Shown here in pieces: positions 15,115 through 35,863 of a stretch of DNA of 64,000 nucleotides; position 1 is the first letter of the stretch; each line of letters starts with the position of its first letter. Location: positions 9,714-73,713 of the forward strand of contig JACAEL010000071.1 of assembly GCA_013388835.1 (NCBI GenBank), given 5' to 3'. A model generated the notes under the pieces. The model searched no databases and had not been told where the DNA came from. It was given only the letters and a program-made list of their open reading frames with translations. This stretch comes from Candidatus Thorarchaeota archaeon (lineage in GTDB: Archaea; Asgardarchaeota; Thorarchaeia; Thorarchaeales; Thorarchaeaceae). Made by a program: the position numbers and the translations under genes.

Positions 15115-16776
15115 ATGATTCATAACACGTTCCTCATACGCGTTTCCACACTAAAGATCCTTGCAAACTCCAGCTATTGGCCTGTCAAGGTGAATCAGAA
15201 GGACATCAAGGAGTTTGTCACGACAAGTACTGAACTGAGGGCCGCAGATGTCAGTCTGAGAGATCTTCCGTTGATTGTGGGTGACAACAAGTTCGGTGGG
15301 AAGGAGATAGTAAAAGACCTCCTTCTGGTGTTCGCTTGCGACCGCAATGAGGATGATCACAGCCTCCAAGACCGATTGACGCAGGCTTCAAAGATTCTGA
15401 AGAAGCGAATTGCCGAGGTCGGACTCGATTCTGTCATTACAGATTATGCGCGGTTGATTGAGGAATCGGTCACAACGCGACTGAAGATTGCTCTCGTTGG
15501 GGAAGGTGGTGTGGGTAAGACCACTGCTCTTCATCTCCTTCTTGGGGACACTCCTCCACTCCAGTATGTACCCACAATCGCACTGAATCTTGAGACCGTT
15601 GAGAACATCCGATTTGGAAACTACTCTCTGGTCATCTGGGACTTTGCCGGGCAGGAGCGATTCAGGACGCTGTGGCGGTTCTACTTCCATGGTGCTGACG
15701 TCATCTTCCTGGTGTGCGACTCGACACTCAGGAATGTGATAATCAGCAAGGACATCCTGAAGCTTATTCGACGTGATGCTCCCAAGGTGCCCGTGTTTGC
15801 CATTGCTAACAAACAGGACAAGCCCAACGCCATGAAGCCTGAGGTTGTCCAGAAGGTCCTAGGTGTGCCTACCTACCCGATGGTGGCCATCGACAAGGCA
15901 AAGCGTGATGAGATGCTTCGGATCCTCATGACCGCAGCAGCACAGTATGTTGGAGTTGCTCTCCCAGATGTTCCAGCAAAGGACCTATTGCGATTCACTG
16001 ACGAGGCCACAGAGCGGGCCTCAAAGGTCACTGTTCGGGGCGAAAAGCAAACCAAAGCGACCGACGAAGGTGTTGTGGAAGTTGTGGAAGAGGTCCTTGT
16101 GGATGAGGCTGGCCATGTTGTGGAAGCAGATGGCGAATACGAGATAGTCGAAGAGGTCGAGGAAATAGTAGACACGGTTGAAGAGGAAACGCCATCAGTG
16201 CCCACAGCCAGAATGGAACCGGCCGCTCATACTGTAGAAGAGCAGGGAACGGTTGCAGAAGAGCAGGGAACGGTTACAGAAGAGCAGGGAACAGTTGCAG
16301 AAGAGCAGGGAACAGTTGCAGAAGAGCAGGGAACGCATCCTCCTTCAGATGATGTGGAACTGACCGCGGCAACTGAGAGCCAAGTCCGAATCAGCACTGA
16401 GCTGGGCGACGCTCAGATTGAAATCTCTGACTCGGAGATTGAGATCTCCGACTCTGAGATTGAGATTGAAGTGTCCGAAGAGGGAAACGGTGTTCAACTG
16501 GCCAAGGAGTTTCTGTGTCGTGAGCTTGAGGCTGACGAGATACTTGTCGAAGAGCTTGACGCCGTGCCCGCGACGGAGATTGACAAGGCCCTCGAAGCAC
16601 TCCGTAGCGACGAAGCAGCGGGCCCTGATGATGGCACACTCTCTCCCCAAGCAGTCGGTGACGATGAGAAGAAGGGACTAGTTCTTGTACTCGGACGCGA
16701 CAGTCTTCCCAAGTCTAATCAGGATGTCAAGGGCGGCACGAAACACACTGTAGAGTCCGGTACAGACGTAGAATGA
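15115..16776 (+). CDS. Multi-domain small GTPase: N-terminal unknown domain, Ras/Arf-like G domain, acidic tandem-repeat tail
   Basis: G1 GEGGVGKTT, switch I YVPTIALN, G3 WDFAGQERF, G4 NKQD. About 115 aa of unassigned sequence precede the G domain. C-terminal low-complexity tail with EEQGTVA x5 and SDSEIEI x3 repeats. Confidence 0.7.
   Translation: MIHNTFLIRVSTLKILANSSYWPVKVNQKDIKEFVTTSTELRAADVSLRDLPLIVGDNKFGGKEIVKDLLLVFACDRNEDDHSLQDRLTQASKILKKRIAEVGLDSVITDYARLIEESVTTRLKIALVGEGGVGKTTALHLLLGDTPPLQYVPTIALNLETVENIRFGNYSLVIWDFAGQERFRTLWRFYFHGADVIFLVCDSTLRNVIISKDILKLIRRDAPKVPVFAIANKQDKPNAMKPEVVQKVLGVPTYPMVAIDKAKRDEMLRILMTAAAQYVGVALPDVPAKDLLRFTDEATERASKVTVRGEKQTKATDEGVVEVVEEVLVDEAGHVVEADGEYEIVEEVEEIVDTVEEETPSVPTARMEPAAHTVEEQGTVAEEQGTVTEEQGTVAEEQGTVAEEQGTHPPSDDVELTAATESQVRISTELGDAQIEISDSEIEISDSEIEIEVSEEGNGVQLAKEFLCRELEADEILVEELDAVPATEIDKALEALRSDEAAGPDDGTLSPQAVGDDEKKGLVLVLGRDSLPKSNQDVKGGTKHTVESGTDVE
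16237..16341 (+). repeat. Tandem 21-bp repeat x5 (gaagagcagggaac[ga]gtt[ga]ca) encoding EEQGTVA heptads
   Basis: Direct read of the sequence. Five consecutive near-identical 21-mers. Confidence 0.8.
16414..16470 (+). repeat. Tandem 21-bp repeat about x2.7 (gagattga[ag]atctc[ct]gactc[gt]) encoding SDSEIEI
   Basis: Direct read of the sequence. Confidence 0.6.
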
Positions 16777-21900: not shown

Positions 21901-22097
21901 GTTCGACTTCACTCCAAAGTGAATCTCACAGTATACTTCGTGTTTTGCCGATATAACTTCTTTGTATGTGCCCTATTCTAGCGACATTGTGTCCTGACAG
22001 CGCCGGGTCTCAGCCCGAGCATCCAACGACAAACCATTTATCTCCCGGTTTACTGCAAGGTTTGTGCGGCTCTAGTTATCCAAGATGGTGAGCGTGA

Positions 22098-22799
22098 ATG
22101 AAGATTGTTGTAACGGGTCCATACGAAGCTGGCAAGAGCCTTCTCATTCATCACATAACAAATGGTGCATGCATAAACGTGGAACGGCGCGGGACCACCA
22201 TTGCCATGGATCATGGTGTGGCTAACGTGGATGGTATGACCGTCTTCCTCTTTGGCACTCCGGGTCTTCTGCGCTTCAGAACGATGCGAAAGATACTGAG
22301 TTCAGGTGCTGATGGAATCGTATTCGTAGTTGACTCAGCAGACAAGGAGTCCGACGCAAGAGCCAAGATGTTCTTCAGGGAGATTGCCTTCTTCCTTCCC
22401 GGTGTCCCCTGCGTGGTTGCTGCCAACAAACAGGACCTCTCTGCCGCCCGGCCAGTGGATGTATTGAGGGAGGACATGCGTTTCTTGGCCGGCGTTCCTG
22501 TGATACCGGTGTCCGCAAAGACAGGTGCAAATGTGGATGCTATGCTTCGCACGCTCCTGTTTCTTACCATGATGCAATGGAGTTCAGTCTTCACCAAGTT
22601 CGCTCAGTACAGCGGCACCTCCCACGGACTCAGTAGCCTGATGTCCGACCTGAAGATGGGGCGTGACCAAGTAGTCGGGTATCTTCGTAGATTCGAGCTC
22701 AGAAAGCTCCTTGAGGTGCAAGTGGGCGACGAGCAGTTCGTGGTCCGGGACTCTGTGAGACCTCTCTTGGAGAATCCGTCGATGCTCGTACGACGCTAG
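22098..22799 (+). CDS. MglA-like small GTPase
   Basis: P-loop GPYEAGKS, G3 with PG (FGTPGLLRF) as in MglA, G4 NKQD, 233 aa. Confidence 0.7.
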   Translation: MKIVVTGPYEAGKSLLIHHITNGACINVERRGTTIAMDHGVANVDGMTVFLFGTPGLLRFRTMRKILSSGADGIVFVVDSADKESDARAKMFFREIAFFLPGVPCVVAANKQDLSAARPVDVLREDMRFLAGVPVIPVSAKTGANVDAMLRTLLFLTMMQWSSVFTKFAQYSGTSHGLSSLMSDLKMGRDQVVGYLRRFELRKLLEVQVGDEQFVVRDSVRPLLENPSMLVRR

Positions 22800-22855
22800 A
22801 AGGTCATGGAGAAAGAATCAAAAGCGAGTGAAATGGCCCCGGTGCACAGACAGAG

Positions 22856-23782
22856 GTGAACCCCATGACCGAGGGCGACTCTTTCGAAGACCTTGACCCA
22901 GTACAACTCCTTGAACAGGCCGCAGCAGCTGAGCAAGCGGGTGACAAATCGACCGCGGCCAAAATACTCAACACGGTGGGCAATATCTACATGTCTGTTG
23001 CAGACTATCAGGAGGCCCTTACGAACTTCGAGCGTGCACTGAAGATGTATCAGGAGTTGGAAGAGGCGGCCGGAATTGGGGACACTATCTACAATCTCGG
23101 AGTCGCTCAGATCAACCTTGAGCGCTGGGAGGATGCTGCCAAGACCCTCAGTGAAGCTCTCGCTTTCTTTGAGAAGACCTCCAACGAAGATGGCACTGCA
23201 GACGCGCTCTACGGGTTGGCTCTTGCAAAGCTCGGTATGAATGCATTCGAAGAAGCCATGGAGTTCTTCAAGAAGGCCCAGCGTGTCTACAAGGCTGCCG
23301 GAAATGAGCAGGGCTTCGTGAGCACAGTCATGGATATCGGTAATGCATATGCCGACAAGGAGGACTGGGAGAACGCTGAGAAGACCTTCAAGAAGGCCCT
23401 GACAATCTATCGAGAACTGGATGACGCATCCGGCATCGCAGACGCTCTCTCGTTGTTGGGTGACATTGCTGAGACGCAGGAGAACCAGAAGAAGGCAGTG
23501 GAGCTGTTTGTGGAGGCTGCTCAATACTACGTCAAGGCTGGGATACTCGATATCGCCAGAGAGGTCATAGAACGAGCCGAGAGCAAGCTCTGGGATGTGC
23601 CCAAGGCAACTCGACGGCGCCTAAGACCGATGATTGACGAGGTGATTGACAACCTTCCTGAAGAACCTGAGGAAGAGGCGGAGGACGGGTCCGAACTCAG
23701 CGACGAGGACTTTGATGAGGAACTACTAGACATCGGGACTGAAGGTGAGGACTACTCCGACACGGACAACGACGTCGAGTGA
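22856..23782 (+). CDS. TPR-repeat protein with an acidic C-terminal tail
   Basis: Multiple 34-residue TPR-like units (W-LG-Y-A-F-A-P consensus positions). C-terminus EEPEEEAEDGSELSDEDFDEE... Confidence 0.75.
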   Translation: MNPMTEGDSFEDLDPVQLLEQAAAAEQAGDKSTAAKILNTVGNIYMSVADYQEALTNFERALKMYQELEEAAGIGDTIYNLGVAQINLERWEDAAKTLSEALAFFEKTSNEDGTADALYGLALAKLGMNAFEEAMEFFKKAQRVYKAAGNEQGFVSTVMDIGNAYADKEDWENAEKTFKKALTIYRELDDASGIADALSLLGDIAETQENQKKAVELFVEAAQYYVKAGILDIAREVIERAESKLWDVPKATRRRLRPMIDEVIDNLPEEPEEEAEDGSELSDEDFDEELLDIGTEGEDYSDTDNDVE

Positions 23783-23870
23783 TGTGGCACGAGCAGGCTC
23801 TGACGCCCGGTGGAACCGCAGACAAAACTCTAATACAGTTGCTTCCCTCTCCGGTCTGTATCCGAAGAGG

Positions 23871-26800
23871 ATGACTGTCATGTCCAAAGACTGCCGCAGT
23901 TTGCTCACCATCCTGACCTTTCTCCTAATCTTAGGTGCTAATTGGAGTCCTGGATTGCTTCAGAACACCGCCTCAGAGCATGCACGCGCCGGAGTGTTTC
24001 AACTGGCGGAGTTCATGGACACCTACAATACTGTTCCTCTGCGACGCGCTACCCTTGTCCATGCGGATTCCTCTTCCTACGTCGACGAGTTTGCGTATAT
24101 GGCCTCTATCCCGTCAGGCGTCTTCGTGAACGGTACTAGCCGATATATCTCTCCCATTCTCTTCTTCAATCAGTCCGACTCACAGAGATGGCTTCTTGAG
24201 GACTGGGTGGAGTATCTCGATGTCGATGGCGGGGTTACTCAGTTCACGGTGGTCGGGGATGCCACACTTGAGTCTGTGGAGTCCGTTGCTACAGCGCTCG
24301 GTGTGGTACCTTACCCATGGGTGCGGGGAGGGACCTCGGCAGAGATTGCAGCTTATCTTGCACTGGCCGACTGGAGCGAATCCGACTCTGCGGTCGTCGC
24401 CCTCTCACATGATGCCTGGACCACTCCTACTCCCCTGACAGGGGAATCGAGTCGGTCGATGGAGGGACTGACGACTGTGACACAGACCAGTCAAGTCACA
24501 GTCCTTTCCGACAACCCCTTTTCAGTATCCTTCTCTTCCACCTCCGGTGTTGGTTGGCTGGAGGGCGCATTCAACTGGACAGGTGACTTCTGGTGCACTC
24601 ATGTCTTGGACGATCCCCTTGGACATCATGTGGACTACTCGATAAGGAGCCAGACCTACTGGGAACGCTTCAGTCCACTTGTCCATGCGCCCGTGCCTCT
24701 CTACTTCTGGTATCCGAACACCGCAAACGGCACATGGGATGTCACAATCACTCCTCAATCGATAGGCATCTTCCCTGTCGTTCTTGACTTCGAGCTTATT
24801 CTTCACCCCGGGTACACGGAGTCTATCTCGGTCCCAGCCAACGCAAAGTCACTGGACGTCACTCTGTCTTGGGACAAGAGGGGTACTGACCTCAATCTCG
24901 CTCTGATCGACCCACAAGGACGGCTTGTCCAGTGGGCCCCCTCGGGTAGCCTGATCTCTGGTCCGGGACGCGAGTCTGTTTCGGTACCATACCCGATGGA
25001 GGGAGAGTGGCAGGTCGTTGTCGCCTGGATGAATGCTAATGGCGAGCAGAACAACGCGAAGGTCTCATGGGTCATTGAGCGGTTGCCTCAGGACCTGCAG
25101 TATTTTCTCGAGTCTGCTGCCAATGGTGCCGTCCTTGCTTCCCTTCTCAACTCCCCACTATTGTATACAGACGCAGCATCGGTCCCGGAGATAACGTCTT
25201 GGGTCATTGAAGAACTCGATGTCAACCACATCTTCTTGGTTGACCCCGCCAATCTGCACTCTGTATCGGTCATGACAGAACTCAGTTCACTTGGTGTTGT
25301 GGTCAATCTCTACAACTATCCCCTGGTCTCACAGTGGATTCGCCAGCTGTCCAAGAGCAATGATGTTGTCATCACTATTCCGCGTGGTGATGCATCGGAG
25401 TTCTTTCCAGCAGCTGCATACTCTGCAGCGTTTCATGGTGCTCCAGTCTTCTCTCTGTGTGACCAGCACAACGTGATGACCACGAGAGCTGAGGCAACAT
25501 GGTACCCGTATCTCATAGGACCAGAGATCGACATCTACATCACCAGTAGATACTCCACACGAAGTGAGAACGGCTGGTTCGACGAGCGCATACCTAACCG
25601 TTATACGATGACGAGTTCGGTTGAGGCGTTCGAGGGTTTCCTAGACGACCGGGGTGCGTATAACTCGACTGTCCCTCAGAAAGTGGTAGTCGTGTCCCCT
25701 GATACTGTCATCAAGACAAGCTTCGACCGGTCCATACAGAGCCACTTCTTGCCCGGTCGGATTCCTGCCGCAACACCCTCTCTGGCAGCGGTGCAGGTCA
25801 ATCGTGCGGCTCTCCACAGGTTCATTTTCCGGATCGCTGAGTCCGCAGACCGTGCGCTAGTGACGATGTATGCGTACACTCACGGTGCTCAGTTCATTGA
25901 CAACGGTGCCCAGATCCATACCATCTACCAATTTGAGAACACATCCGACTCTGTTCAAGACGCCGGGTTGGAAGTCGATGCTCATGTGGGCTACAGCGAA
26001 GTCTTCGCATCTCTCGCGGCTCAACCTGCCCTGTGGGTCCTTAGCACCCACGGGACGCTGACGCGCTATCCCACGGACCCTCCAGCTCGCCCGGGTGGAG
26101 ACGGTCTCTTCTCTCTGCGCAGCACGGATGCAGAGTATGGTCGTGAGAGTTCGTCAACCAGAGACGCAAATGCAGACAAACTGGTCAACCCTGTCCAGTT
26201 CACGGAAGAGGAGTCTCTTCATCGAATCGAGTCGACCGCCACGCTCGCGGCCGGTGTGGGTAACATGGGGTCTCCCATTGTTATTCTCACAGCCTGTCTT
26301 CTAGGAGGTTCAATGCTTCCCATGACGCTCATGGAGCACGGGGCTGTGTCAGTTGTGGCCTCGCCACGCACAGTCTATTTCCAGCCGGCTGCGATGGTAT
26401 CTCTGGTCATGCTTGAAGACCTCGCCAGCGGTGAGACCATTGGTAGCGCGCTTGGTCATGGAATCGTGCAGGTCTCATATGACTATTCAAATCCGCCCAG
26501 CCAAGACCCCAGAGACTATGCATGTCAGCATGTGCTCTTCGGCGATCCGAGCATCATGCTCTATGACCCTGATGCTGTTCCAAGGGTGCCTGCTGTAGAT
26601 GGGCAATCTGCAGTCTTTGGCTCTCACGTACCTGGACGTGGAACGAACCCGGTGGCTGCACTGGGCACCTCGAGTACGCTTCCGTCGGCACTCACACAAG
26701 CTGGCGTGGACTATGACTATTATGAGGTTGATAACTACTCTGGCTTCCGTAGCCTCCTTCCAGTCCGGAAGTGCGTGATTCTAGAACCTGGCTCTTACGA

Positions 26801-27743
26801 CTCATTCTCCGCATTGATGGCTGTAGATGCATCTGCTCTGGCAACATTTGTGTCCGGCGGTGGTGTCTTGGCCCTGATTGGCGTGTCCGACGATAGTGAA
26901 TGGCTCCCGTGGGGAGCTTCAGTCGACGAAGGTCCTAGCGGCCTGTCTATCGAACTCACTGACACTACACACCCTCTGATGACAACTCCCAATCTCCTCA
27001 ACAGCAGCACATCTTACCAAGGCCGTTTCTTGTCCATGTGGGAGAACTACTCGGTCCTTGCCACCGACCCCATAGGACCCGTAATCATCGCATCTTCTGT
27101 CGGCTTTGGAAAGGTGATGCTGTCAACCATCCGTCCTAGTGGCGAATGGCTGAACCAGTTTGTGGAGAACATCGCTCTGTGGGGCAACCAGCCGTCGCTG
27201 TGGTTGAGATCCATCTCACTCAGTCAGGTGATCATATGGGGCGGAGACCGTGTAACGGTCGTGCTCCGTATCACGGACCGTGTTGGCAAGCCTGTCTCCG
27301 GGGTTGCTCTGAGTCTACGGTTGAACTCCTCAGATGTCAGTGACAGACTCCACGAGACCACTCCTGGTCAGTTCAGCATACTGTTGGACGAGACGTGGAC
27401 GAATGAACATGTGGGTATGTTGACATTGAACCTGACAGCGAAGAAGGCTGGGCATGACACACTCACACTTGTGCTGTACCGATTCATGTACGTCCGGCCG
27501 TCGCCCTGGCCTGCGATAGCGATACTCTCGATTGGGATAATAGCGCTCTTCGTCGGGTATGCATATATCAAGCGACGCAGAGGTGAGACAATCCTACCAT
27601 CATGGCACCTTGGAAGCCTCATCAGAAGAGACAACATGACCAGAGAAGAGCGCAAGCGGAAGAAGGAGGAGGAACGCAGACGGAGAGAGGAGCGAAAGAA
27701 GAAGGAATCGGAGTTTGATGCCAAGGAGTTCTTTGGTGTATGA
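23871..27743 (+). CDS. Large (about 1,290 aa) type-I membrane surface protein with a highly charged cytoplasmic tail
   Basis: Signal peptide at the internal ATG at 23871 (MTVMSKDCRSLLTILTFLLILGA). Many NxS/T sequons. C-terminal TM helix AIAILSIGIIALFVGYAYI followed by an RRRGE...REERKRKKEEERRRREERKKKESEF tail. Confidence 0.6.
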   Translation: MTVMSKDCRSLLTILTFLLILGANWSPGLLQNTASEHARAGVFQLAEFMDTYNTVPLRRATLVHADSSSYVDEFAYMASIPSGVFVNGTSRYISPILFFNQSDSQRWLLEDWVEYLDVDGGVTQFTVVGDATLESVESVATALGVVPYPWVRGGTSAEIAAYLALADWSESDSAVVALSHDAWTTPTPLTGESSRSMEGLTTVTQTSQVTVLSDNPFSVSFSSTSGVGWLEGAFNWTGDFWCTHVLDDPLGHHVDYSIRSQTYWERFSPLVHAPVPLYFWYPNTANGTWDVTITPQSIGIFPVVLDFELILHPGYTESISVPANAKSLDVTLSWDKRGTDLNLALIDPQGRLVQWAPSGSLISGPGRESVSVPYPMEGEWQVVVAWMNANGEQNNAKVSWVIERLPQDLQYFLESAANGAVLASLLNSPLLYTDAASVPEITSWVIEELDVNHIFLVDPANLHSVSVMTELSSLGVVVNLYNYPLVSQWIRQLSKSNDVVITIPRGDASEFFPAAAYSAAFHGAPVFSLCDQHNVMTTRAEATWYPYLIGPEIDIYITSRYSTRSENGWFDERIPNRYTMTSSVEAFEGFLDDRGAYNSTVPQKVVVVSPDTVIKTSFDRSIQSHFLPGRIPAATPSLAAVQVNRAALHRFIFRIAESADRALVTMYAYTHGAQFIDNGAQIHTIYQFENTSDSVQDAGLEVDAHVGYSEVFASLAAQPALWVLSTHGTLTRYPTDPPARPGGDGLFSLRSTDAEYGRESSSTRDANADKLVNPVQFTEEESLHRIESTATLAAGVGNMGSPIVILTACLLGGSMLPMTLMEHGAVSVVASPRTVYFQPAAMVSLVMLEDLASGETIGSALGHGIVQVSYDYSNPPSQDPRDYACQHVLFGDPSIMLYDPDAVPRVPAVDGQSAVFGSHVPGRGTNPVAALGTSSTLPSALTQAGVDYDYYEVDNYSGFRSLLPVRKCVILEPGSYDSFSALMAVDASALATFVSGGGVLALIGVSDDSEWLPWGASVDEGPSGLSIELTDTTHPLMTTPNLLNSSTSYQGRFLSMWENYSVLATDPIGPVIIASSVGFGKVMLSTIRPSGEWLNQFVENIALWGNQPSLWLRSISLSQVIIWGGDRVTVVLRITDRVGKPVSGVALSLRLNSSDVSDRLHETTPGQFSILLDETWTNEHVGMLTLNLTAKKAGHDTLTLVLYRFMYVRPSPWPAIAILSIGIIALFVGYAYIKRRRGETILPSWHLGSLIRRDNMTREERKRKKEEERRRREERKKKESEFDAKEFFGV

Positions 27744-27848
27744 GTGTTTTGCGCAAATGAGTGGGTCGGACGCCCCATTCTCATAACAAGATTTTATAGT
27801 GGAGTGGATGCGACTCACCTCATCTACCTTGGTGTAGAGGTCAGCCAG

Positions 27849-28211
27849 ATGGCAAGCCGTGTAGACAAGATCAACTCAGCAATTCGCGATTTTGAAACAG
27901 TGCCCGGTGTGGAGGGCGCCGCACTAGTCTCTAGTGATGGTCTGATGATATCGTCAGCATTGCCTGAGAGTGAGCAGGAGCGCGTTGCCGCAATAAGCGC
28001 TGCGATGCTCTCCCTGGGTGAGAAGATCTCAGGTGAGCTCAATCGCGGCAGTTTCCTTGAAATATACGTGAAGAGTGAGAGGGGTTACACACTGATGACC
28101 TCTGTTGGGGACAATGCCCTCATGATGGTCCTGGCCAAGCCCGACGCACAGCTGGGGCTTATCTTCCTAGACATGAAGAGGCTGGCTCAGAGCCTCGTAG
28201 ACATACTGTAG
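27849..28211 (+). CDS. Roadblock/LC7 domain protein (MglB-like)
   Basis: Typical Roadblock pattern from the internal ATG at 27849: VPGVEGAALVSSDGLMISS...AAMLSLGE...GYTLMTSVGDNALMMVL. Confidence 0.75.
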   Translation: MASRVDKINSAIRDFETVPGVEGAALVSSDGLMISSALPESEQERVAAISAAMLSLGEKISGELNRGSFLEIYVKSERGYTLMTSVGDNALMMVLAKPDAQLGLIFLDMKRLAQSLVDIL

Positions 28212-28223
28212 ACGTGTGACCAT

Positions 28224-29480
28224 TCACCGGCGTCTTTTGTCAAGCCGCTCAACGACCAAGTCAATCAGCCGTCGAGCAACGTCCCTCTTTGAGGCCATGG
28301 GTACGTGTTCCAGAAACCCGTCCTCTCCCACTATCACCACTTCGTTGGTGTCGGAGCCGAACGCTACACCTCTCTTGCGTTCGTCGTTTCCCACTACGAG
28401 GTTGCATACCCCTGACAGTATCTTCTCGCGTGCCTTTGACTCGAGTTCGGCCTCACTGACCCCTGACTCGACTTTGAAACCCACTATGAACAGGTCGCTG
28501 TACTTGCGTCTCACCGTGTCGATTATCTTCGGGGTGGAGACCAACCTCACAGTGTAGGACTCGCCCGACGGACGTTTCCTGTCCTCCCTCTCCTCAGGCT
28601 CGAAGTCGAGCACTGCAGCCGACGAGATGAACACGTCAGCCTTCCTGTCTGCTATCGAAGAGAGTACTGAGTCGAGCATCTCCTTGGCAGTCTCGACTCG
28701 GATGGTGTCTAGGTGTTCGGGAACAGGTTGGCTCGTGGGGCCAAGCACCAATACGACCTCTCCTCCTCTTGCAGCTATCTCTTTCGCTGTCTCAATGCCC
28801 ATCTTGCCAGTCGATGGATTGGTCATGAAGCGCACGCGGTCCAGCCAACCTCTGGTGGGACCAGCTGTCACAACGAAGCTGTGCCCAACAAGGTCTCTGG
28901 GTCCCAGTATCTCAAAGACGGTCTCGACGACGGCTTCCACCGAGGAGATCTTCGCCTTGGCCTCTTCCATTCTTGGCGCCACTACTCTCACTCCCATGTC
29001 CTTCAGTCTCTGAATGTTGGCCAAGACTGCGGGATGATCATAGAGGGACTTGTGCATGGCGGGCACGATCACCACCGGTATGTGTGCTCCTATCGCAGAG
29101 GACACTGTTGTTGTCACAGGCGTGTCGTCTATGCCATTAGCTATCTTACCTATCGTGTTCGCCGTCGAAGGAGCAACAAGGACAAGGTCCACATGCTCGG
29201 GGTGGTCTCCGGCCAGACTTACGTGCTCAATCTGTCCTGTAAGCTCGGTTATCACAGGGTTTCCTGTTGCCCACTCCAGCAAGAACGGGTGAATGATCTT
29301 CTGTGCGCTCTCGCTCATCACCGAGTAGACCTCTGCCCCATGACGCATCAATGTGCGTGACAGATTCACACACTCGACAGCTGCCACGCTTCCTGTGACA
29401 CAGAGGGCAATTGTCTTTCCTGCTAGTGTGCTGCTGAGGCTACCCACAATCAGCTTGGAAGTGTGTTTCATGGGGAGCAA
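28224..29480 (-). CDS. coaBC: Bifunctional phosphopantothenoylcysteine decarboxylase / phosphopantothenate-cysteine ligase
   Basis: N-terminal flavoprotein motifs (LCVTGSVAA, PAMH, VAPSTANTIGKIANGIDD) and the C-terminal CoaB domain. Confidence 0.85.
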   Translation of the reverse strand: MLPMKHTSKLIVGSLSSTLAGKTIALCVTGSVAAVECVNLSRTLMRHGAEVYSVMSESAQKIIHPFLLEWATGNPVITELTGQIEHVSLAGDHPEHVDLVLVAPSTANTIGKIANGIDDTPVTTTVSSAIGAHIPVVIVPAMHKSLYDHPAVLANIQRLKDMGVRVVAPRMEEAKAKISSVEAVVETVFEILGPRDLVGHSFVVTAGPTRGWLDRVRFMTNPSTGKMGIETAKEIAARGGEVVLVLGPTSQPVPEHLDTIRVETAKEMLDSVLSSIADRKADVFISSAAVLDFEPEEREDRKRPSGESYTVRLVSTPKIIDTVRRKYSDLFIVGFKVESGVSEAELESKAREKILSGVCNLVVGNDERKRGVAFGSDTNEVVIVGEDGFLEHVPMASKRDVARRLIDLVVERLDKRRR

Positions 29481-29874
29481 ACTGACACCCTGTCATCAAG
29501 TCGGGAGCGCGTACTATTAACTTATCTGACCTCACCATCCGAGAATGGTACGCTGTACGCTCGTGTTTGCCTAATCTCCTCTCGTATACCTCATCGTCGC
29601 GTTTGTGCGTCGGTTTCCATGAACTCGAGACCTGCGTATGTGACTGTCGTTGGTGCGCTGCAGTAGTCTTCGGAGGGATTCCGCCGCCCGTCTGGACACT
29701 CCGGGCGGTGTCAATCTGGTAGTATGTACCACATGGCTCCTCTTGGCAGGAATATGGCTTCCGTGGATTGGATGCCCAACAGACTCAACAACATATCGGC
29801 CGTGTCATACCTACTCGTTGATGAGTAGCATGGTGTGCTTGAGCAAAGAATATATGCGCCAAGATTGGTGAGCG

Positions 29875-30834
29875 ATGGCAGTCTGCACTGCAGCCAGCCC
29901 CTGTTCAGACTTTAGAGGCATGCTCTGTGATTCAGGATTCCACACGTATGCCGCGCGCTTGGTGCTGAGACCTAGTTCGGAGGTGATTGAGAGAGCGTTG
30001 GCAAGGTCCTTAGACTGGGATGAGGTCCTTGGTGGTCTTTCACAGGAGAAGCGGGCTCGCTACATGGCATACGCAGAAGTTCTCGACTCGCTGGGAACGC
30101 CAAACCAGTCGATGTTCGTCTTGGACAGTGACAGCGAGTTTGACACATTCGACCGCGACTTCAGGGAGTTTCTCGCTCTCAGCGGGCGCGTGCCAAGTGA
30201 CAAGAAAGACCCTCCCTATCACGTCGTGAGGGTGGGTTATGATGGTGATATGCTCGACGACATGTTCCGAGTTGTGATCTCTCACGAGTCCAAGAACTTC
30301 AATCCTGCGAGACTGGACTCAAACATGCTCTACTCTAAACAGGCAATCTTCCAGCATCTCTACAACATCATCACCAAGGATCGGTTTGTCGTATTTCATG
30401 TCACGGAGTTTCCTCTGGCCTACTACTTCGAAACCGCTGTTGTAGTGGATGTTGAAGACCTCTCCGATGTCATGGACCAGACTGTGCATGACGAGACGAT
30501 CATGAGATACCTGAATGACCTCCGCAGACTTGGCCCGGACGAGCATCGCAAGACTTACAGCTTCTTCTACAGGATTAGCACCTCCCTCCTGATGGAGCTG
30601 TCCAATGCATTCCTGGTGGTTCCCACTGCAGAGATGAGCCGCCACATTGTGGTGACCAGCTGGCGCACGCAGACTCTTCTCTTGGGATTCAGCCCTCTCA
30701 CATGGTCCTCTGGCAGTTTCAGAATGTACGACTTGAGCGGTCGTGATATCGACGGCCGGTGGGCCTTCCCTGTTGCTTCCACCAGCGATGACCCGCGTGA
30801 GAAGGGCTACACTCGGCTGGTGCCTCTTGACTGA
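29875..30834 (+). CDS. Hypothetical protein embedded in the CoA biosynthesis locus
   Basis: 319-aa ORF with protein-like composition and no recognisable motif. Confidence 0.35.
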   Translation: MAVCTAASPCSDFRGMLCDSGFHTYAARLVLRPSSEVIERALARSLDWDEVLGGLSQEKRARYMAYAEVLDSLGTPNQSMFVLDSDSEFDTFDRDFREFLALSGRVPSDKKDPPYHVVRVGYDGDMLDDMFRVVISHESKNFNPARLDSNMLYSKQAIFQHLYNIITKDRFVVFHVTEFPLAYYFETAVVVDVEDLSDVMDQTVHDETIMRYLNDLRRLGPDEHRKTYSFFYRISTSLLMELSNAFLVVPTAEMSRHIVVTSWRTQTLLLGFSPLTWSSGSFRMYDLSGRDIDGRWAFPVASTSDDPREKGYTRLVPLD

Positions 30835-30931
30835 GCACAGGCCGCCATGTATATACACGTATATCCTGACTGGTGTCATCAATGAATGCATTTATACATG
30901 GCTTCTCAACACCTTCAATGAACGAGAAGCC

Positions 30932-31852
30932 ATGTCCTCGACTGAATTTGTCCGGTCATTTGTCCCCGGACATGTCACAGGTCTGTTCAGAATCATGGAC
31001 GGACCCGAGGACCCTTTGCAACGTGGTTCAGTCGGCGGGGGCTTCTCTGTAGAAATGGGAACGCTGACGACAGTGGCGTTGGAGCATCGCAATGAGACCA
31101 CGATTGATGTGTTCTACAACGGGACACCAATAGACGCTCCAGTGACACGTATGGTGGTAAAGAGAATGCTTGACGAGTCTGGCTCCGAACATGTCCATGT
31201 GACAGTGCGCCACGAGTCCGCACTGCAGATAGGGGCCGGGCTTGGGGCATCAGGAGCAGGGGCTCTCGGTACAGCCCTGTCTCTTGGAGAAGCCCTTGGA
31301 CAACACATGACTGTGAACGATGCTGCGCGTCATGCCCACAGTGCCGAAGTCCTGAACCGCACTGGTCTGGGCGATGTAATAGGTCAGGTTGTTGGCGGCG
31401 TAGAGGTGAGGTTGAAGCCTGGTGCTCCGGGGATAGGGCAGGCAGTACGTCTGGAATACCCCCGGGATATGCATGTCGTGTTGGCTGCCGCGAGCGGGAT
31501 TGAGACAAAGGCCGTACTCAGTGACCAAGACAAGCGGAAGCGCATCAATGAGTCCGGTGGCAGGCTGGTCGCTGATCTCCATCGGAGTCCTTCATTCGAG
31601 ACACTGATTGCAAAGTCTCGGGAGTTCACTGAGGCGACCGGTCTGTCTGCTCCTCGCGTTAGGAAGGCGCTCAAGCTCCTCTACGATGCAGGGTTTGAGG
31701 ACTCAAGCATGGTAATGCTTGGCGACTCGGTGTTCTGTTTCTGCGACGATGGGAGTGTACCGCGTGTGATCGATCTGCTCTGTAGACTGTGGCCCAGGTC
31801 CGAGGTACATGACACACACATTGCAGAAGTGGGAGGGCGTGTCCTGAGATGA
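30932..31852 (+). CDS. Pantoate kinase (archaeal GHMP-family, PoK)
   Basis: GHMP-kinase N-terminal block SFVPGHVTGLF, Gly-rich GAGLGASGAGALGTA. Position immediately upstream of PPS. Start at the internal ATG at 30932. Confidence 0.65.
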   Translation: MSSTEFVRSFVPGHVTGLFRIMDGPEDPLQRGSVGGGFSVEMGTLTTVALEHRNETTIDVFYNGTPIDAPVTRMVVKRMLDESGSEHVHVTVRHESALQIGAGLGASGAGALGTALSLGEALGQHMTVNDAARHAHSAEVLNRTGLGDVIGQVVGGVEVRLKPGAPGIGQAVRLEYPRDMHVVLAAASGIETKAVLSDQDKRKRINESGGRLVADLHRSPSFETLIAKSREFTEATGLSAPRVRKALKLLYDAGFEDSSMVMLGDSVFCFCDDGSVPRVIDLLCRLWPRSEVHDTHIAEVGGRVLR

Positions 31853-32667
31853 CCAGCACTGAGATTCCACATGATCACCCCCGAAGGGTCTCCCTGGAGA
31901 TTCGTCACAGGATAATAGAGGGACACAGAGCCAGTGTTGTGGCCACTGCAGGGCTGCTAGCGCATGGTCGTGGCGAGGCATTCGACTACTTGATTGGAGA
32001 ACGCACAACAGAAGTGGCTCGAATCGCCTCTCAAGTTGCGGTCGCGCACATGCTCTTGGCGAAACACCCAGTGATTAGTGTCAACGGAAACGCATGTTCG
32101 CTAGTGGCAAGAGACCTTGTGACCCTCTCCAATCTCACAGGCGCACCCCTCGAAGTCAACCTGTTCTACTACTCACCCGAGCGCGAGGATGCCATTGTCC
32201 ATGCTCTGAGGGAGGCTGGCGCATCAGAAGTCTTGGGCACCAGAGACCGTCCATCTGTCACGATTCCAGAGCTAAGTAGCAACAGGCGGAAGGTCGACCC
32301 GGAGGGTATTGGCGGAGCTGATGTTGTTCTGGTGCCGCTTGAAGACGGCGACCGAACAGAGGCACTCCGAAGAGTCGGCAAGATGGTCCTTGCAATCGAC
32401 CTCAATCCGATGAGCCGGACCTCAGTCCATGCGAACGTCACGGTTGTAGACAACATCGTCCGTGCCCTTCCGTTGATGGTGGAATTCGCACGAGACCTGT
32501 CCAATGCAGACACTTCGACTCTCAGACGCATAACCACCCACTTCGACAATGCTGAGAACCTGAGAGAGTCTGTTGACATTATGCTTCAGCATCTACAGGA
32601 GTGGGCTCTTTCGTTGCACACACAGTCTGGAGAAACCTTGAGAAGCAGGGAGGTTCAGACACGATGA
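31849..32667 (+). CDS. 4-phosphopantoate-beta-alanine ligase (archaeal phosphopantothenate synthetase, PPS)
   Basis: LLAHGRGEAFDYLIGE matches the archaeal PPS/COG1701 family. ATGA overlap with both neighbouring genes. Confidence 0.7.
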   Translation: MTSTEIPHDHPRRVSLEIRHRIIEGHRASVVATAGLLAHGRGEAFDYLIGERTTEVARIASQVAVAHMLLAKHPVISVNGNACSLVARDLVTLSNLTGAPLEVNLFYYSPEREDAIVHALREAGASEVLGTRDRPSVTIPELSSNRRKVDPEGIGGADVVLVPLEDGDRTEALRRVGKMVLAIDLNPMSRTSVHANVTVVDNIVRALPLMVEFARDLSNADTSTLRRITTHFDNAENLRESVDIMLQHLQEWALSLHTQSGETLRSREVQTR

Positions 32668-33650
32668 AACTGGTCTTCGTAGGCGCGGGAGCAGTCGGCT
32701 GCATGTATGGCGGTATGTTGCTGCTTTCCGGTCACCATGTCACCTTTGTAGGTAGACCCCCGCACACAGATGCAGTCCGAGAGCACGGTCTACATGTCAG
32801 CGGCGTTATGGGCGACCACGTCCTGCACCCGCAGATAACAGACGATGCGTCCACCATATCTCGCGCCGATTTCGTCTTCATCACAACCAAGGCGTATGAC
32901 ACCTTGGAAGCTGCTCGAGAGATTCGTCATCTGGTGGATTCAGGGTCATACGTTGTCATTCTTCAGAACGGCATAGGAACTGAGAGGGCTGTCGCGAGTG
33001 AGCTTCACACTACAAGAGTGATACGTGCTACAACCTGTGCCGGTGCCAGGAAGACCAGTCACAACGAAGTGGTCATCACAGGTTTCGGTGTCACGGAGAT
33101 TGGCACGCACTATCCCGAGCATCAGGACGCCACTCAGACCGTAGCCTCCCTAATCGAGAAGGCAGGCTTCCCTGTCAGGGCATCGGCAAACCTTGATGGA
33201 CTGGTATGGACCAAGACAATCGTGAACTGTGGCATCAATCCCGTCGGTGCCCTGACAGGAATGACAAACGGGGAGATTCACGACTGTCTCTCTCTCCGAC
33301 CGGTCGTCATAGGTCTAGTTGACGAGGCGACCCGTGTTGCCCGTGCGATGGGCATTCACTTGACCACTGATGACCCTGTCCGCTACACACTTGGGACAGC
33401 CAAGGCTACCGCGAGCAACATCAACTCGATGCTTCAAGACCTAAGAGCAGGGAAGCGTACCGAGATTGACCACATGACGGGTGCTGTCGTACGTCTCGGA
33501 CGAGAGCTGGGCGTCCCAGTCCCTCTGAGTGAGGCGGTATACGCTCTTGTGACCGCTCTTGAGTCGAAGGTCCGTTCTCGCCAACAGAGGCTCTCTCGTG
33601 AGGAAACACTGACCCCAGAGCGGCTTATCCAAGAGCTGACATCTAGCTGA
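32664..33650 (+). CDS. panE: 2-dehydropantoate 2-reductase (ketopantoate reductase)
   Basis: N-terminal Rossmann MKLVFVGAGAVGCMYG, ApbA/PanE pattern. Start at the ATG at 32664, which overlaps the PPS stop. Confidence 0.75.
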   Translation: MKLVFVGAGAVGCMYGGMLLLSGHHVTFVGRPPHTDAVREHGLHVSGVMGDHVLHPQITDDASTISRADFVFITTKAYDTLEAAREIRHLVDSGSYVVILQNGIGTERAVASELHTTRVIRATTCAGARKTSHNEVVITGFGVTEIGTHYPEHQDATQTVASLIEKAGFPVRASANLDGLVWTKTIVNCGINPVGALTGMTNGEIHDCLSLRPVVIGLVDEATRVARAMGIHLTTDDPVRYTLGTAKATASNINSMLQDLRAGKRTEIDHMTGAVVRLGRELGVPVPLSEAVYALVTALESKVRSRQQRLSREETLTPERLIQELTSS

Positions 33651-35449: not shown

Positions 35450-35863
35450 GCGCCGTGCACAGTTGAATGTACAAGATAAACCTCACTGGATGTCGAAGTC
35501 AGTCTCGACACCGAAGATTTAAGACACGTGTGCAATCCGTAAATACCCGCGAGTGGATGGTACGTGTTCCGGAGGTTGCTGACGCGTTTGAAGCGTTCAC
35601 CAAAGGTAATGACTCCAGAGGACTCCAAGCTCACATCTGCGCCATCAACCCCTGACGCACCGACGTCTTCGACCACTGAAGCCCGGATGTCTTCTACCAC
35701 CGAAGCCCCCTCGACCCCCCTCCCTGCTCCGCTTCCTGGGGAGAGGCGGACTGTGACACCTATGGGCACGCTAGTGGCATCATCACAGGACCTGAGTATT
35801 GACGCCACCAGCACAGCCAACAGGGCGAAGGCAGCGCAGGTCCGACCCCAGAGGGTTGTTGAC

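What the first reader, a model, noticed from the sequence alone, without database searches (positions are those of the whole stretch)
22098..28211. Candidate novel operon: MglA-like GTPase, TPR protein, giant type-I membrane protein, Roadblock/LC7
Four co-directional genes are separated by only 57, 88 and 105 bp. They are an MglA-type GTPase (PG-containing G3), a TPR scaffold ending in a poly-acidic tail, a roughly 1,290-aa heavily N-glycosylation-sequon-rich extracellular protein with one TM helix and a 55-residue poly-basic/acidic cytoplasmic tail (RRRREERKKKE...), and a Roadblock/MglB-like protein. MglA-MglB pairs are normally adjacent. Here the pair brackets a transmembrane surface protein and a TPR adaptor. 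That arrangement suggests a GTPase switch coupled to an extracellular sensor or adhesion protein, possibly through electrostatic pairing of the acidic TPR tail with the basic cytoplasmic tail. Nothing like this arrangement is a described system as far as I know.
Basis: partly seen in the sequence, partly recalled or inferred. Interest (0 to 1): 0.75.

Follow-up and report, generated by a model that had tools for sequence, protein, structure and literature searches.

The report
Thorarchaeal GTPase–Roadblock cluster with surface protease
In Thorarchaeota (Asgard archaea), a small GTPase switch, its likely Roadblock regulator and a TPR adaptor are encoded in a conserved cluster around a membrane-anchored, gingipain-like surface protease whose cytoplasmic tail ends in a conserved motif; this gives a testable candidate for a matched GTPase, regulator and membrane partner in the archaea closest to eukaryotes.

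Summary
The window comes from a Candidatus Thorarchaeota MAG.

- **Gene 1** is an MglA group 2-5-type small GTPase. Its G2 is 'TT' and its G3 is 'GTPGL', so it has no Asp and no catalytic Gln.
- **Gene 2** is an LGN-like TPR protein with a conserved basic helix and an acidic tail.
- **Gene 4** is the ortholog of the crystallised Thor-RB Roadblock dimer (PDB 7F8M).

The order is kept in about 60 Thorarchaeota species, but the unrelated flanking genes are kept there too. The informative case is a divergent lineage (38-56% identity) that keeps only these four genes, with different flanks. Odinarchaeia keep the GTPase next to a TPR-like gene.

It is probably not one operon. Conserved TATA-like boxes precede the GTPase, the Roadblock and probably the giant gene.

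Best reading (about 0.45): a conservon-like or MglA/MglB-like G-protein module docked on the protease tail. It is a new variant of a known kind. I found no description of it in the literature searched.

The parts
22032..22043 (+). BRE/TATA-like box (AAACCATTTATC) about 55 nt upstream of the GTPase start; an SD-like GGTGAG lies at 22087-22092
   Evidence: One search gives the sequence. One search shows a conserved block (ACAAACCTTATAA) at the same distance in orthologous loci. One search finds an A/T hexamer at -75..-30 in 50/58 loci against 14.7% in coding background, and an SD in 54/58.
22098..22799 (+). Small GTPase of MglA group 2-5 type (233 aa). The G domain is residues 1-159: G1 at 22116-22139, G2 'GTTIAMD' at 22191-22211, G3 'FGTPGL' at 22251-22268, NKQD at 22425-22436, SAK at 22512-22520. 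A fused C-terminal winged-helix domain covers residues about 160-233 (22575-22796).
22810..22827 (+). Conserved spacer element AGAAAGAATCAAAAGCGA between the GTPase and TPR genes; function unknown. SD-like AGAGGTGA lies at 22852-22859.
   Evidence: TATA-like hexamers occur upstream of the TPR gene in only 16/58 loci, so GTPase and TPR are probably co-transcribed.
22865..23782 (+). Cytosolic TPR protein (305 aa). LGN/Pins-like TPR repeats cover residues about 30-230. An invariant basic helix WDxPKATRRRLR lies at 23591-23626. The acidic tail starts at LPEE (23654) and carries an FDEDLL-type motif at 23708-23731.
   Evidence: Pfam TPR_12 3e-30. In a profile search against PDB, the best natural match is GPSM2/LGN/Pins at 3e-29.
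23823..23837 (+). BRE/TATA-like box (CAAAACTCTAATACA) upstream of the giant gene
   Evidence: One search finds an A/T hexamer in 24/48 loci against 14.7% background.
23871..27743 (+). Type-I membrane-anchored surface protein (1290 aa). Domain order: signal-like segment (res 11-23); CWB2-like alpha/beta domain (about 50-180); beta-sandwich; PPC/jelly-roll (about 300-405); second CWB2-like domain (about 410-545); gingipain-like C25 peptidase domain (about 575-895, with His727 in STHGT at 26043-26057 and Cys809 in TACLLGG at 26289-26309); GATase1/GIFT-like alpha/beta domain (about 925-1105); Ig-like domain (about 1110-1210); TM helix 1212-1233 (27504-27569); KRRRGE stop-transfer (27570-27587); K/R/E-rich tail; conserved C-terminal FDAKEFFGV (27714-27740).
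27748..27757 (.). Palindrome TTTGCGCAAA 5 nt after the giant gene's stop codon. It recurs, sometimes twice, in the same spacer of several orthologous loci. It may be a transcription-factor site or a terminator-like element.
27785..27799 (+). BRE/TATA-like box (AACAAGATTTTATAG) about 50-55 nt upstream of the Roadblock start; SD-like AGAGGT lies at 27836-27841
   Evidence: The conserved block (CAATAAGTTATTATAG / ACAAGATTTTATAG) is. One search finds an A/T hexamer in 48/50 loci, sharply peaked at -60..-50, and an SD in 48/50.
27849..28211 (+). MglB-type Roadblock/LC7 protein (120 aa), with an 'SSDGL' Asp-Gly pair at 27930-27944. It is the ortholog of Thor-RB.
   Evidence: Pfam Robl_LC7 1.3e-19. 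PDB 7F8M at 2.3e-54. The SMTZ1-45 ortholog in the same cluster (L014:11773-12132) is identical to 7F8M at 119/120 positions. Thor-RB is KXH72322.1, a homodimer without a basic patch (PMC10933270).

Best explanation
The four genes form one functional module: a membrane-proximal G-protein switch attached to a surface protease.

**Components**
- The giant protein is a type-I, membrane-anchored, gingipain-like (clan CD, C25-type) cysteine peptidase displayed on the cell surface. Its short charged cytoplasmic tail ends in a conserved FDxKEFFGV-COOH motif.
- Three cytosolic proteins act on that tail. The first is an MglB-type Roadblock homodimer (Thor-RB ortholog). The second is an MglA group 2-5-type small GTPase that has lost both the G3 Asp and the catalytic Gln, so it should hydrolyse GTP poorly by itself, and that carries a fused winged-helix domain. 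The third is an LGN-like TPR adaptor with an acidic tail.

**Proposed working**
The tail recruits the Roadblock dimer and/or the TPR protein to the membrane. The Roadblock dimer sets the nucleotide state of the GTPase, as a GAP/GEF platform like MglB or CvnB. The GTP-bound GTPase engages the TPR protein as effector or adaptor. The result controls where and when the protease is deployed or retained (inside-out control).

**Shown here**
- Gene identities, folds and motifs.
- The conserved tail motif.
- Conservation of the four-gene set in a second lineage with different flanks.

**Inferred**
- Every protein-protein contact.
- The direction of signalling.
- The output.

I put the general claim, that the four genes are functionally linked, at about 0.65. 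I put the specific tail-docked, inside-out mechanism at about 0.35-0.4.
For: 1. **Conservation beyond background synteny.** In locus L052 (19.7 kb) of a divergent lineage, only four of 20 window genes lying within about 9 kb upstream or downstream of the cluster (13408-37167) are present. They keep the same order and strand: GTPase 56%, TPR 39%, giant 38%, and Roadblock 30% identity in the sister locus L066 (E 7e-15); the L052 Roadblock ORF matches Pfam Robl_LC7 at 4.7e-12. The flanks differ, with an S8 peptidase downstream.
2. **Odinarchaeia.** The closest GTPase homologs there (45-46% identity) sit 63 nt downstream of a TPR-like gene.
3. **GTPase and Roadblock signatures.** The GTPase carries the MglA group 2-5 signatures G2 'TT' and G3 'GTPG'. 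The Roadblock carries the Asp-Gly pair described for MglBs coupled to those groups.
4. **Tail motif tracks the cluster.** The tail ends in FDxKE[FY]FGV in Thor and TDV[KR]DILGV in the divergent lineage. Distant giant homologs that lack the neighbours also lack this tail: P0104 and P0105 have no C-terminal TM, and P0102 and P0103 have only a short basic stub.
5. **Strong constraint on the small proteins.** GTPase and Roadblock are as constrained as RtcB. Mean distances are 0.25 and 0.18 against 0.28 for RtcB.
6. **Precedents.** MglA-MglB (PMC4316618). The conservon/AGPS, which combines a membrane protein, a Roadblock, the HTH protein DUF742 acting as GEF, and an MglA-type GTPase (PMC13343842, PMC11343762). 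TPR proteins of the LGN type bind extended peptides; that point is established knowledge, and one search shows only the sequence similarity.
7. **No consistent terminators.** T5 runs follow the genes in only 2-8 of 50-58 loci, so read-through co-transcription is possible.
Against: - Within Thorarchaeota the unrelated flanks are equally syntenic: RtcB, an AIRS-like gene, CoaBC, a 319-aa unknown, and two further GTPases. About 60 loci therefore add little.
- The informative second lineage is represented by only two or three genomes.
- Conserved promoter-like boxes precede the GTPase, the giant gene and especially the Roadblock.
- The Odin TPR-like neighbour is not demonstrably orthologous. Pairwise E is 0.04, and it lacks the acidic tail and the PKATRRR motif. 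Odin shows no giant gene or Roadblock nearby.
- Hod and Hel homologs of the GTPase stand alone.
- A mirror-tree test gave no signal above controls.
- No interaction was modelled or measured.
- An MglA group-1-like GTPase 7.6 kb away could be the Roadblock's partner.
- C25 peptidases of sediment archaea are usually read simply as nutritional exoenzymes (10.1101/2025.03.11.642519).
Confidence: 0.45

Rival explanations
1. Neighbours without a common function. The cluster would be two or three independent units frozen together by the strong synteny of Thorarchaeial genomes: a cytosolic GTPase+TPR pair; a nutritional, membrane-anchored extracellular C25 protease; and a Roadblock protein that serves other GTPases, of which Asgard genomes encode many.
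For: - Flanking housekeeping genes are just as syntenic across about 60 Thor loci.
- Each gene except the TPR gene has its own conserved promoter-like box.
- The Odin lineage keeps only GTPase plus a TPR-like gene.
- Roadblock homologs elsewhere pair with other genes; for example, P0280 pairs with a V4R protein.
- An MglA1-like GTPase with an Arg-finger G2 and TVAGQ G3 lies 7.6 kb downstream and is syntenic in Thor.
- The mirror-tree test is uninformative.
- C25 peptidases are catalogued as peptide-degradation enzymes in Asgard MAGs.
Against: - The divergent lineage lost every flank, including both other GTPases, but kept exactly these four genes in order.
- A purely nutritional exoprotease has no obvious need for a conserved cytoplasmic C-terminal motif, and relatives outside the cluster lack that motif.
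- The Roadblock's Asp-Gly signature fits the MglA2-5 type rather than the group-1 type.
Confidence: 0.3
2. An outside-in, conservon-like sensor. The surface protein would report an extracellular event, such as substrate or partner contact or its own processing, through its tail to the Roadblock/TPR/GTPase complex. The GTPase's fused winged-helix domain would then bind DNA and change transcription.
For: - All four functional slots of the conservon/AGPS are filled: membrane protein, Roadblock, HTH module and MglA-type GTPase.
- The winged-helix domain has an Arg/Lys-rich third helix (GYLRRFELRKLLEV) that is conserved family-wide.
- It gives weak matches to IclR, TrmB and HTH_45 DNA-binding domains.
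- A conserved palindrome lies in the giant-Roadblock spacer.
Against: - No kinase or other signalling domain is present in the giant protein.
- The HTH matches are marginal (E 0.001-0.05), and there is no match to DUF742.
- In mycobacteria the DUF742 HTH protein acts as a GEF, not as a transcription factor (PMC11343762).
- pTM 0.88 suggests the winged helix packs on the G domain, which fits a regulatory or protein-binding role as well as a DNA-binding one.
Confidence: 0.12
3. A conflict or defence system of the NTPase + TPR + caspase-like protease kind.
Against: - PADLOC gives no hits except a generic TPR model.
- The best structural match is gingipain, not CHAT.
- The protease domain is extracellular (signal peptide plus C-terminal TM), so it cannot be gated directly by cytosolic TPR binding.
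- The locus is core, single-copy, fixed in place and flanked by housekeeping genes in all Thor genomes.
Confidence: 0.02

Closest known systems
Actinobacterial conservon / AGPS (CvnA-D; MfpB-E)
   Same: Both combine a membrane protein, an MglB-type Roadblock, an HTH-containing module and an MglA group 2-5-type GTPase (G3 GTPG, G2 TT) in one conserved cluster. Both are thought of as prokaryotic G-protein-coupled systems (PMC4316618, PMC13343842, PMC11343762).
   Different: - The membrane partner here is a 1290-aa surface peptidase, not a histidine-kinase-like sensor.
- The HTH is fused to the GTPase and shows no sequence match to DUF742.
- G4 and G5 are canonical NKQD/SAK, not NxFD/DAR.
- The catalytic Gln is replaced by Leu.
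- An extra TPR protein is present.
- The lineage is archaeal (Asgard).
- The genes have separate promoter-like boxes.
MglA/MglB polarity module of Myxococcus and Thermus, with TPR effector SgmX
   Same: A Ras-like GTPase without the G3 Asp is paired with a Roadblock homodimer. A TPR protein as GTP-state effector is a known theme; SgmX is cited from my own knowledge. Both systems control envelope machinery.
   Different: - MglA group 1 uses TVPGQ plus an intrinsic Arg finger. This GTPase has neither the Arg nor the Gln.
- mglA and mglB are adjacent in the known systems. Here two genes separate them.
- No motility genes are present.
Thor-RB (KXH72322.1, PDB 7F8M) of Tran et al. 2024
   Same: The Roadblock gene here is its direct ortholog (76% identity). 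The crystallised protein is encoded in the same four-gene cluster of SMTZ1-45 (L014).
   Different: The paper treats Thor-RB without genomic context and states that GTPase/RB matching is hard to predict from genome layout. A 2024 preprint proposed pairing it with Thor-Rab (KXH73347.1), which lies on another contig.
Gingipains RgpB/Kgp and PorU (peptidase family C25, clan CD)
   Different: - The Pfam C25 score for this protein is below the gathering threshold (13 bits).
- It is anchored by its own C-terminal TM helix with a cytoplasmic tail, rather than by a T9SS C-terminal domain.
- It has extra CWB2-like, PPC, GATase1/GIFT-like and Ig-like domains.
- Its activity and specificity are unknown.
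Ragulator-Rag (LAMTOR Roadblock dimers tethered to a membrane by LAMTOR1)
   Same: Both involve a Roadblock dimer acting as a membrane-tethered platform for a small GTPase. Thor-RB resembles LAMTOR2 as closely as it resembles MglB (PMC10933270).
   Different: This is an analogy only. The GTPase here has no Roadblock domain of its own and is of MglA type, not Rag type. Tethering through the giant protein's tail is inferred.

Membership tests
MglA family, groups 2-5 (Wuichet & Sogaard-Andersen 2014) | G3 lacks the universal Asp and reads G-T-P-G | tested here: met
   The motif FGTPGL lies at residues 52-57. F52, G53, P55 and G56 are invariant and T54 is nearly invariant (at least 90%) in 40 family members from Thor, Odin, Hel and Hod.
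MglA family, groups 2-5 (Wuichet & Sogaard-Andersen 2014) | Catalytic Gln directly after G3 (GTPGQ) | tested here: not met
   The position is Leu in all displayed family members except P0213, which has Met. This is the classic GTPase-dead substitution.
MglA family, groups 2-5 (Wuichet & Sogaard-Andersen 2014) | G2 has Thr-Thr, with no intrinsic Arg finger | tested here: met
   GTTIAMD at residues 32-38
MglA family, groups 2-5 (Wuichet & Sogaard-Andersen 2014) | Single-domain protein, genomically coupled to an MglB gene; placement by phylogeny | tested here: inconclusive
   [not shown]
MglB / Roadblock-LC7 (PF03259) | Robl_LC7 domain above the Pfam threshold, and a homodimeric alpha-beta-alpha fold | tested here: met
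   70.2 bits against a cut-off of 23. The protein is 76% identical to the ortholog that matches PDB 7F8M. Thor-RB is a crystallographic homodimer.
MglB / Roadblock-LC7 (PF03259) | GAP or GEF activity on the cognate GTPase | not testable with these tools
   This needs biochemistry. The only sequence support is the Asp-Gly pair typical of MglBs coupled to MglA2-5 (SSDGL).
Peptidase family C25 (gingipain), clan CD | Caspase-haemoglobinase fold of the gingipain type | tested here: met
   [not shown]
Peptidase family C25 (gingipain), clan CD | Catalytic His (H-G) and Cys (A-C) dyad | tested here: met
   H727 (STHG) and C809 (TAC) are invariant in 55 sequences down to 22% identity.
Peptidase family C25 (gingipain), clan CD | Pfam PF01364 above the gathering score | tested here: inconclusive
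   The window protein scores 13.3 bits against a cut-off of 23. Eight of 11 orthologs match at E<=0.05, best 3.8e-6. Many orthologs carry a precomputed PF01364 hit.
Actinobacterial conservon (AGPS) | CvnA: membrane histidine-kinase-like sensor | tested here: not met
   The giant protein has no HATPase or HisKA domain. Its domains are peptidase, CWB2-like, PPC, GATase1-like and Ig-like.
Actinobacterial conservon (AGPS) | CvnC: DUF742 (HTH) protein | tested here: not met
   No DUF742 hit for 12 C-terminal domains at E<=1. A fused winged helix may be an analogue.
Actinobacterial conservon (AGPS) | CvnD-type G4 NxFD and G5 DAR | tested here: not met
   NKQD and SAK
Operon (single transcription unit) | No internal promoters; co-transcription | tested here: not met
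   Conserved TATA-like boxes at -50 to -60 occur before the Roadblock (48/50), the GTPase (50/58) and the giant gene (24/48), but before the TPR gene in only 16/58. Coding background is 14.7%. T5 terminators are rare. No transcript data are available.
Known anti-phage defence systems (PADLOC) | Match to a defence-system protein model | tested here: not met
   Only a generic TPR model matched.

The most novel reading that the evidence does not exclude
The cluster would encode an archaeal, Ragulator-like arrangement. A conserved C-terminal tail motif of a type-I surface protein would recruit a Roadblock dimer and a naturally GTP-locked MglA-type GTPase, with an LGN-like TPR protein as effector. 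That would be a prokaryotic example of sorting or positioning of a membrane protein by cargo-tail recognition coupled to a small GTPase, in the archaeal group from which eukaryotes arose.
Probability: 0.15. Interest if true: 0.85.

Novelty: new variant of a known kind. Interest (0 to 1): 0.58.

Why it matters
Asgard archaea encode dozens of small GTPases and many Roadblock and longin proteins, but which regulator goes with which GTPase, and on what target, is unknown. Tran et al. 2024 state that genome layout generally does not help.

This cluster offers one concrete, conserved set. [quoted passage not shown] All of these are small or soluble enough for direct binding and GTPase assays.

The cluster also suggests that the Thor-Rab/Thor-RB pairing proposed in a 2024 preprint is probably not the cognate pair. 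If confirmed, it would extend conservon-like G-protein systems to archaea, with a surface protease in the 'receptor' slot.

Tried and rejected
- **Mirror-tree test.** I ran a partial-correlation test on 33 species, using RtcB, CoaBC and the 319-aa protein as background. Residual correlations among the four proteins (-0.11 to 0.37) were no higher than those with controls, so the test was inconclusive.
- **Odin TPR orthology.** BLASTP gave E=0.04 only, and the Odin protein has neither the acidic tail nor the PKATRRR motif. Orthology is not shown.
- **Fused winged helix as DUF742.** No hit was found. There were only marginal matches to IclR, TrmB and HTH_45.
- **Metagenome scan for more members of the divergent lineage.** It returned only one identical contig.
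- **Contexts of further GTPase homologs.** P0210, P0213, P0214 and P0217 have no TPR, Roadblock or giant gene nearby, or are cut by a contig end.
- **Other distant contexts.** The Roadblock homolog P0280 pairs with a V4R protein, not a GTPase. The distant giant homolog P0104 has no partners.
- **PADLOC.** Negative.
- **Rfam on the whole window.** Nothing was found.
- **Sequon enrichment.** It is only mild, z about 1.5.
- **OST48/Wbp1 and GOLD-domain resemblances of parts of the giant model.** I noted these but did not pursue them. They may reflect generic GATase1-like and jelly-roll folds.

Full report
**1. What is there**

ORF listing and reading of the spacers confirm four co-directional genes on the + strand:
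- a 233-aa GTPase (22098-22799);
- a 305-aa TPR protein (ATG 22865, preceded by AGAGGTGA, to 23782; a GTG at 22856 is the alternative start);
- a 1290-aa protein (ATG 23871 or 23880, to 27743);
- a 120-aa Roadblock protein (27849-28211).

The gaps are 56-65, 88 and 105 nt. Pfam gives Ras/small_GTP, TPR_12 (3e-30) and Robl_LC7 (1.3e-19). The giant protein is 100% identical to a hypothetical protein of a Candidatus Thorarchaeota MAG, so the window is Asgard archaeal. The flanks are housekeeping genes. Upstream lie RtcB and an AIR-synthase-related gene. Downstream lie CoaBC on the minus strand, an unknown 319-aa gene, a GHMP kinase, phosphopantothenate synthetase and PanE.

**2. The GTPase**

G1 (GPYEAGKS), G4 (NKQD) and G5 (SAK) are canonical. 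G2 reads GTTIAMD and G3 reads FGTPGL. Wuichet & Sogaard-Andersen define MglA groups 2-5 by exactly these features. G3 is GTPGQ without the otherwise universal Asp. G2 has Thr-Thr in place of the Arg finger of group 1 (PMC4316618).

There are two differences. First, the catalytic Gln is Leu in every displayed homolog across Thor, Odin, Hel and Hod, except P0213, which has Met. Gln-to-Leu is the substitution used experimentally to lock small GTPases in the GTP state. HodArfR1 Q72L is an example. Second, residues about 160-233 form a winged helix (H162-171, H177-185, H189-201, beta-hairpin 205-216) in a confident model (pLDDT 90.5, pTM 0.88).

The two-domain architecture is rare. Only about 20 of 1.84 billion 50%-identity representatives match the profile over its full length.

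**3. The TPR protein**

It has six or seven TPR_12-type repeats. The closest natural solved relatives are the peptide-wrapping TPR domains of LGN/GPSM2/Pins (3e-29). After the repeats comes an invariant basic helix (WDxPKATRRRLR). That is followed by LPEE and an acidic tail carrying an FDEDLL[ED]F-type motif. The tail's net charge is -8 to -24.

**4. The giant protein**

About 100 homolog clusters, nearly all Thorarchaeota, share 44-54% identity. An AF2 model of residues 45-1240 is confident (pLDDT 89.8, pTM 0.89).

The other domains are as follows:
- two alpha/beta domains like the CWB2 wall-binding domains of C. difficile Cwp6/Cwp8;
- a PPC/jelly-roll domain like that of Tk-SP;
- a GATase1/ThuA/GIFT-like domain;
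- an Ig-like domain.

The protein ends with a TM helix (1212-1233), a KRRRGE stop-transfer and a 30-59-residue K/R/E-rich tail. Its conserved end is FDxKE[FY]FGV, sometimes with one extra residue. The divergent lineage has TDV[KR]DILGV.

Sequons are only mildly enriched: 11 against 7.3 +/- 2.4 expected.

**5. The Roadblock**

It matches PDB 7F8M at 2.3e-54. The ortholog in Thorarchaeota SMTZ1-45 lies in the same four-gene cluster (L014). It is identical to the 7F8M sequence at 119 of 120 positions. That MAG is the source of Thor-RB (KXH72322.1), which Tran et al. 2024 crystallised as a homodimer lacking MglB's basic patch and proposed to be a protein-protein scaffold. I infer that 7F8M is Thor-RB.

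The paper does not discuss the gene's neighbours. It states that GTPase/RB matching is hard to read from genome layout. A 2024 preprint suggested Thor-Rab as partner, but Thor-Rab (KXH73347.1) is on a different contig. The published version modelled an unnamed 'Thorarchaeota pair' that I could not identify.

The Roadblock carries the Asp-Gly pair (SSDGL) reported for MglBs coupled to MglA2-5.

**6. Is it an operon?**

Probably not a single one. In 46-58 orthologous spacers, conserved A-rich/TATA-like blocks sit 50-60 nt before the starts of three genes. Examples are ACAAACCTTATAA before the GTPase, GGAAAACTCTATTTAC before the giant gene and CAATAAGTTATTATAG before the Roadblock. Each is followed by an SD-like GGTG/GAGG.

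Counting A/T-only hexamers at -75..-30 gives the following:

| Gene | Loci with hexamer |
|---|---|
| Roadblock | 48/50 |
| GTPase | 50/58 |
| Giant | 24/48 |
| TPR | 16/58 |
| Coding background | 14.7% |

The count for the giant gene is blurred by uncertain start calls. T5 runs after the stop codons are rare, so read-through is possible. The likely units are [GTPase-TPR], [giant] and [Roadblock].

**7. Synteny**

A genome scan found 65 loci, essentially one per Thorarchaeota species. Every locus with room has the four genes in order.

However, RtcB, CoaBC and the 319-aa gene are just as conserved around them. So are an Arf-like 553-aa GTPase upstream and an MglA group-1-like GTPase downstream. 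The AIRS-like gene is conserved in most loci. Within-class synteny therefore proves little.

The informative cases are these:

(a) A divergent lineage (L052, L066, L075) has GTPase 56%, TPR 39% and giant 38% identity. The L066 Roadblock is 30% identical to the window's (E 7e-15). The L052 Roadblock ORF matches Robl_LC7 at 4.7e-12. The order and strand are the same. None of the other 16 window genes lying within about 9 kb upstream or downstream of the cluster (13408-37167) is present, and an S8 peptidase lies downstream instead.

(b) In Odinarchaeia, the closest GTPase homologs (45-46%) lie 63 nt downstream of a 376-393-aa TPR-like gene, with no giant gene or Roadblock nearby. Orthology of that TPR protein is unproven.

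(c) Hod and Hel homologs (34-36%) stand alone.

(d) Distant giant homologs without the neighbours also lack the long motif-bearing tail.

**8. Mechanism**

The best-supported reading is a functionally linked module. Its logic is that of MglA/MglB and, more closely, of the actinobacterial conservon/AGPS. That system has a membrane protein, a Roadblock as likely GAP, an HTH protein (DUF742, shown to be a GEF in mycobacteria) and an MglA2-5-type GTPase. All four slots are filled here. The HTH is fused to the GTPase, a surface protease sits in the membrane slot, and there is an added LGN-like TPR adaptor.

I propose that the conserved tail end is the docking site for the Roadblock dimer and/or the TPR groove. 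The Roadblock would set the nucleotide state of a GTPase that cannot hydrolyse well alone. The GTP form would work through the TPR protein to control deployment of the protease. Every contact and the direction of control are inferred.

The rivals are as follows:
- independent neighbours (0.3);
- an outside-in sensor ending in DNA binding by the winged helix (0.12);
- a defence system (0.02; PADLOC negative).

**9. Novelty and interest**

Each component belongs to a known family. The design resembles known MglA/MglB and conservon systems, so this is a new variant of a known kind, not a new category. Full-text searches found no description of this cluster, nor of a GTPase-winged-helix fusion or a C25 protease linked to a GTPase module in Asgard archaea.

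Its value is practical. It names a specific, conserved and experimentally tractable GTPase/Roadblock/adaptor/membrane-partner set in Asgard archaea, and it gives genomic context to a published crystal structure.

Three things keep the score moderate. The distribution is restricted to Thorarchaeia plus one sister lineage. The GTPase is of prokaryotic (MglA) type. There is no interaction or expression evidence.

Noticed in passing
window 35858-36442 (+) (ORF from GTG 35564): An MglA group-1-like small GTPase: G1 GPSLSGKTT, G2 GRTTFFD (Arg next to the conserved Thr, the intrinsic Arg-finger position) and G3 FTVAGQ (compare MglA TVPGQ). It lies 7.6 kb downstream of the Roadblock, is syntenic in most Thor loci and is absent from the divergent-lineage loci. 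It is an alternative partner for the Roadblock.
   Followed up: partly
window 15115-16776 (+): A 553-aa multidomain GTPase. It has an unassigned N-terminal extension of about 115 aa, an Arf/Rab-like G domain (WDFAGQ), and a long acidic C-terminus with tandem AEEQGTV repeats. It is syntenic upstream of the cluster in Thorarchaeota.
   Followed up: partly
window 27748-27757 and the same spacer in several L-loci: The palindrome TTTGCGCAAA lies directly after the giant gene's stop codon, about 40 nt upstream of the Roadblock's TATA-like box. It occurs once or twice in a subset of orthologous spacers. It could be a regulator site or a terminator-like element.
   Followed up: no
[not shown]
   Followed up: no
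proteins P0283-P0297: After Thorarchaeota, among the closest relatives of this Roadblock are 143-aa proteins at 43-46% identity, two of them labelled Prochloraceae cyanobacteria. This hints at inter-domain transfer or deep conservation.
   Followed up: no
L073:8850-9867, L074:8805-9822: A 56%-identical Roadblock homolog in MAGs labelled Theionarchaea is followed 4 nt later by a V4R-domain gene (TRAPPC3-like fold family). No GTPase is nearby.
   Followed up: no
window 28224-33650: An archaeal coenzyme-A biosynthesis cluster lies directly downstream: CoaBC (minus strand, ending 12 nt after the Roadblock stop), an unknown conserved 319-aa gene, a GHMP (pantoate-kinase-like) gene, phosphopantothenate synthetase and ketopantoate reductase.
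   Followed up: partly
L052:4794-5702 (-): In the divergent lineage, the gene divergently upstream of the GTPase is a 302-aa protein with faint winged-helix (HTH_47) and Roadblock hits (E 0.02-0.05). It may be another regulator of the module.
   Followed up: no
window 27480-27503 (giant residues ~1204-1211): A conserved [IV]RP[SF]PW motif lies immediately before the TM helix in nearly all orthologs. Its position is reminiscent of sortase-type sorting signals. However, a 30-59-residue tail follows, which standard archaeosortase signals lack.
   Followed up: no
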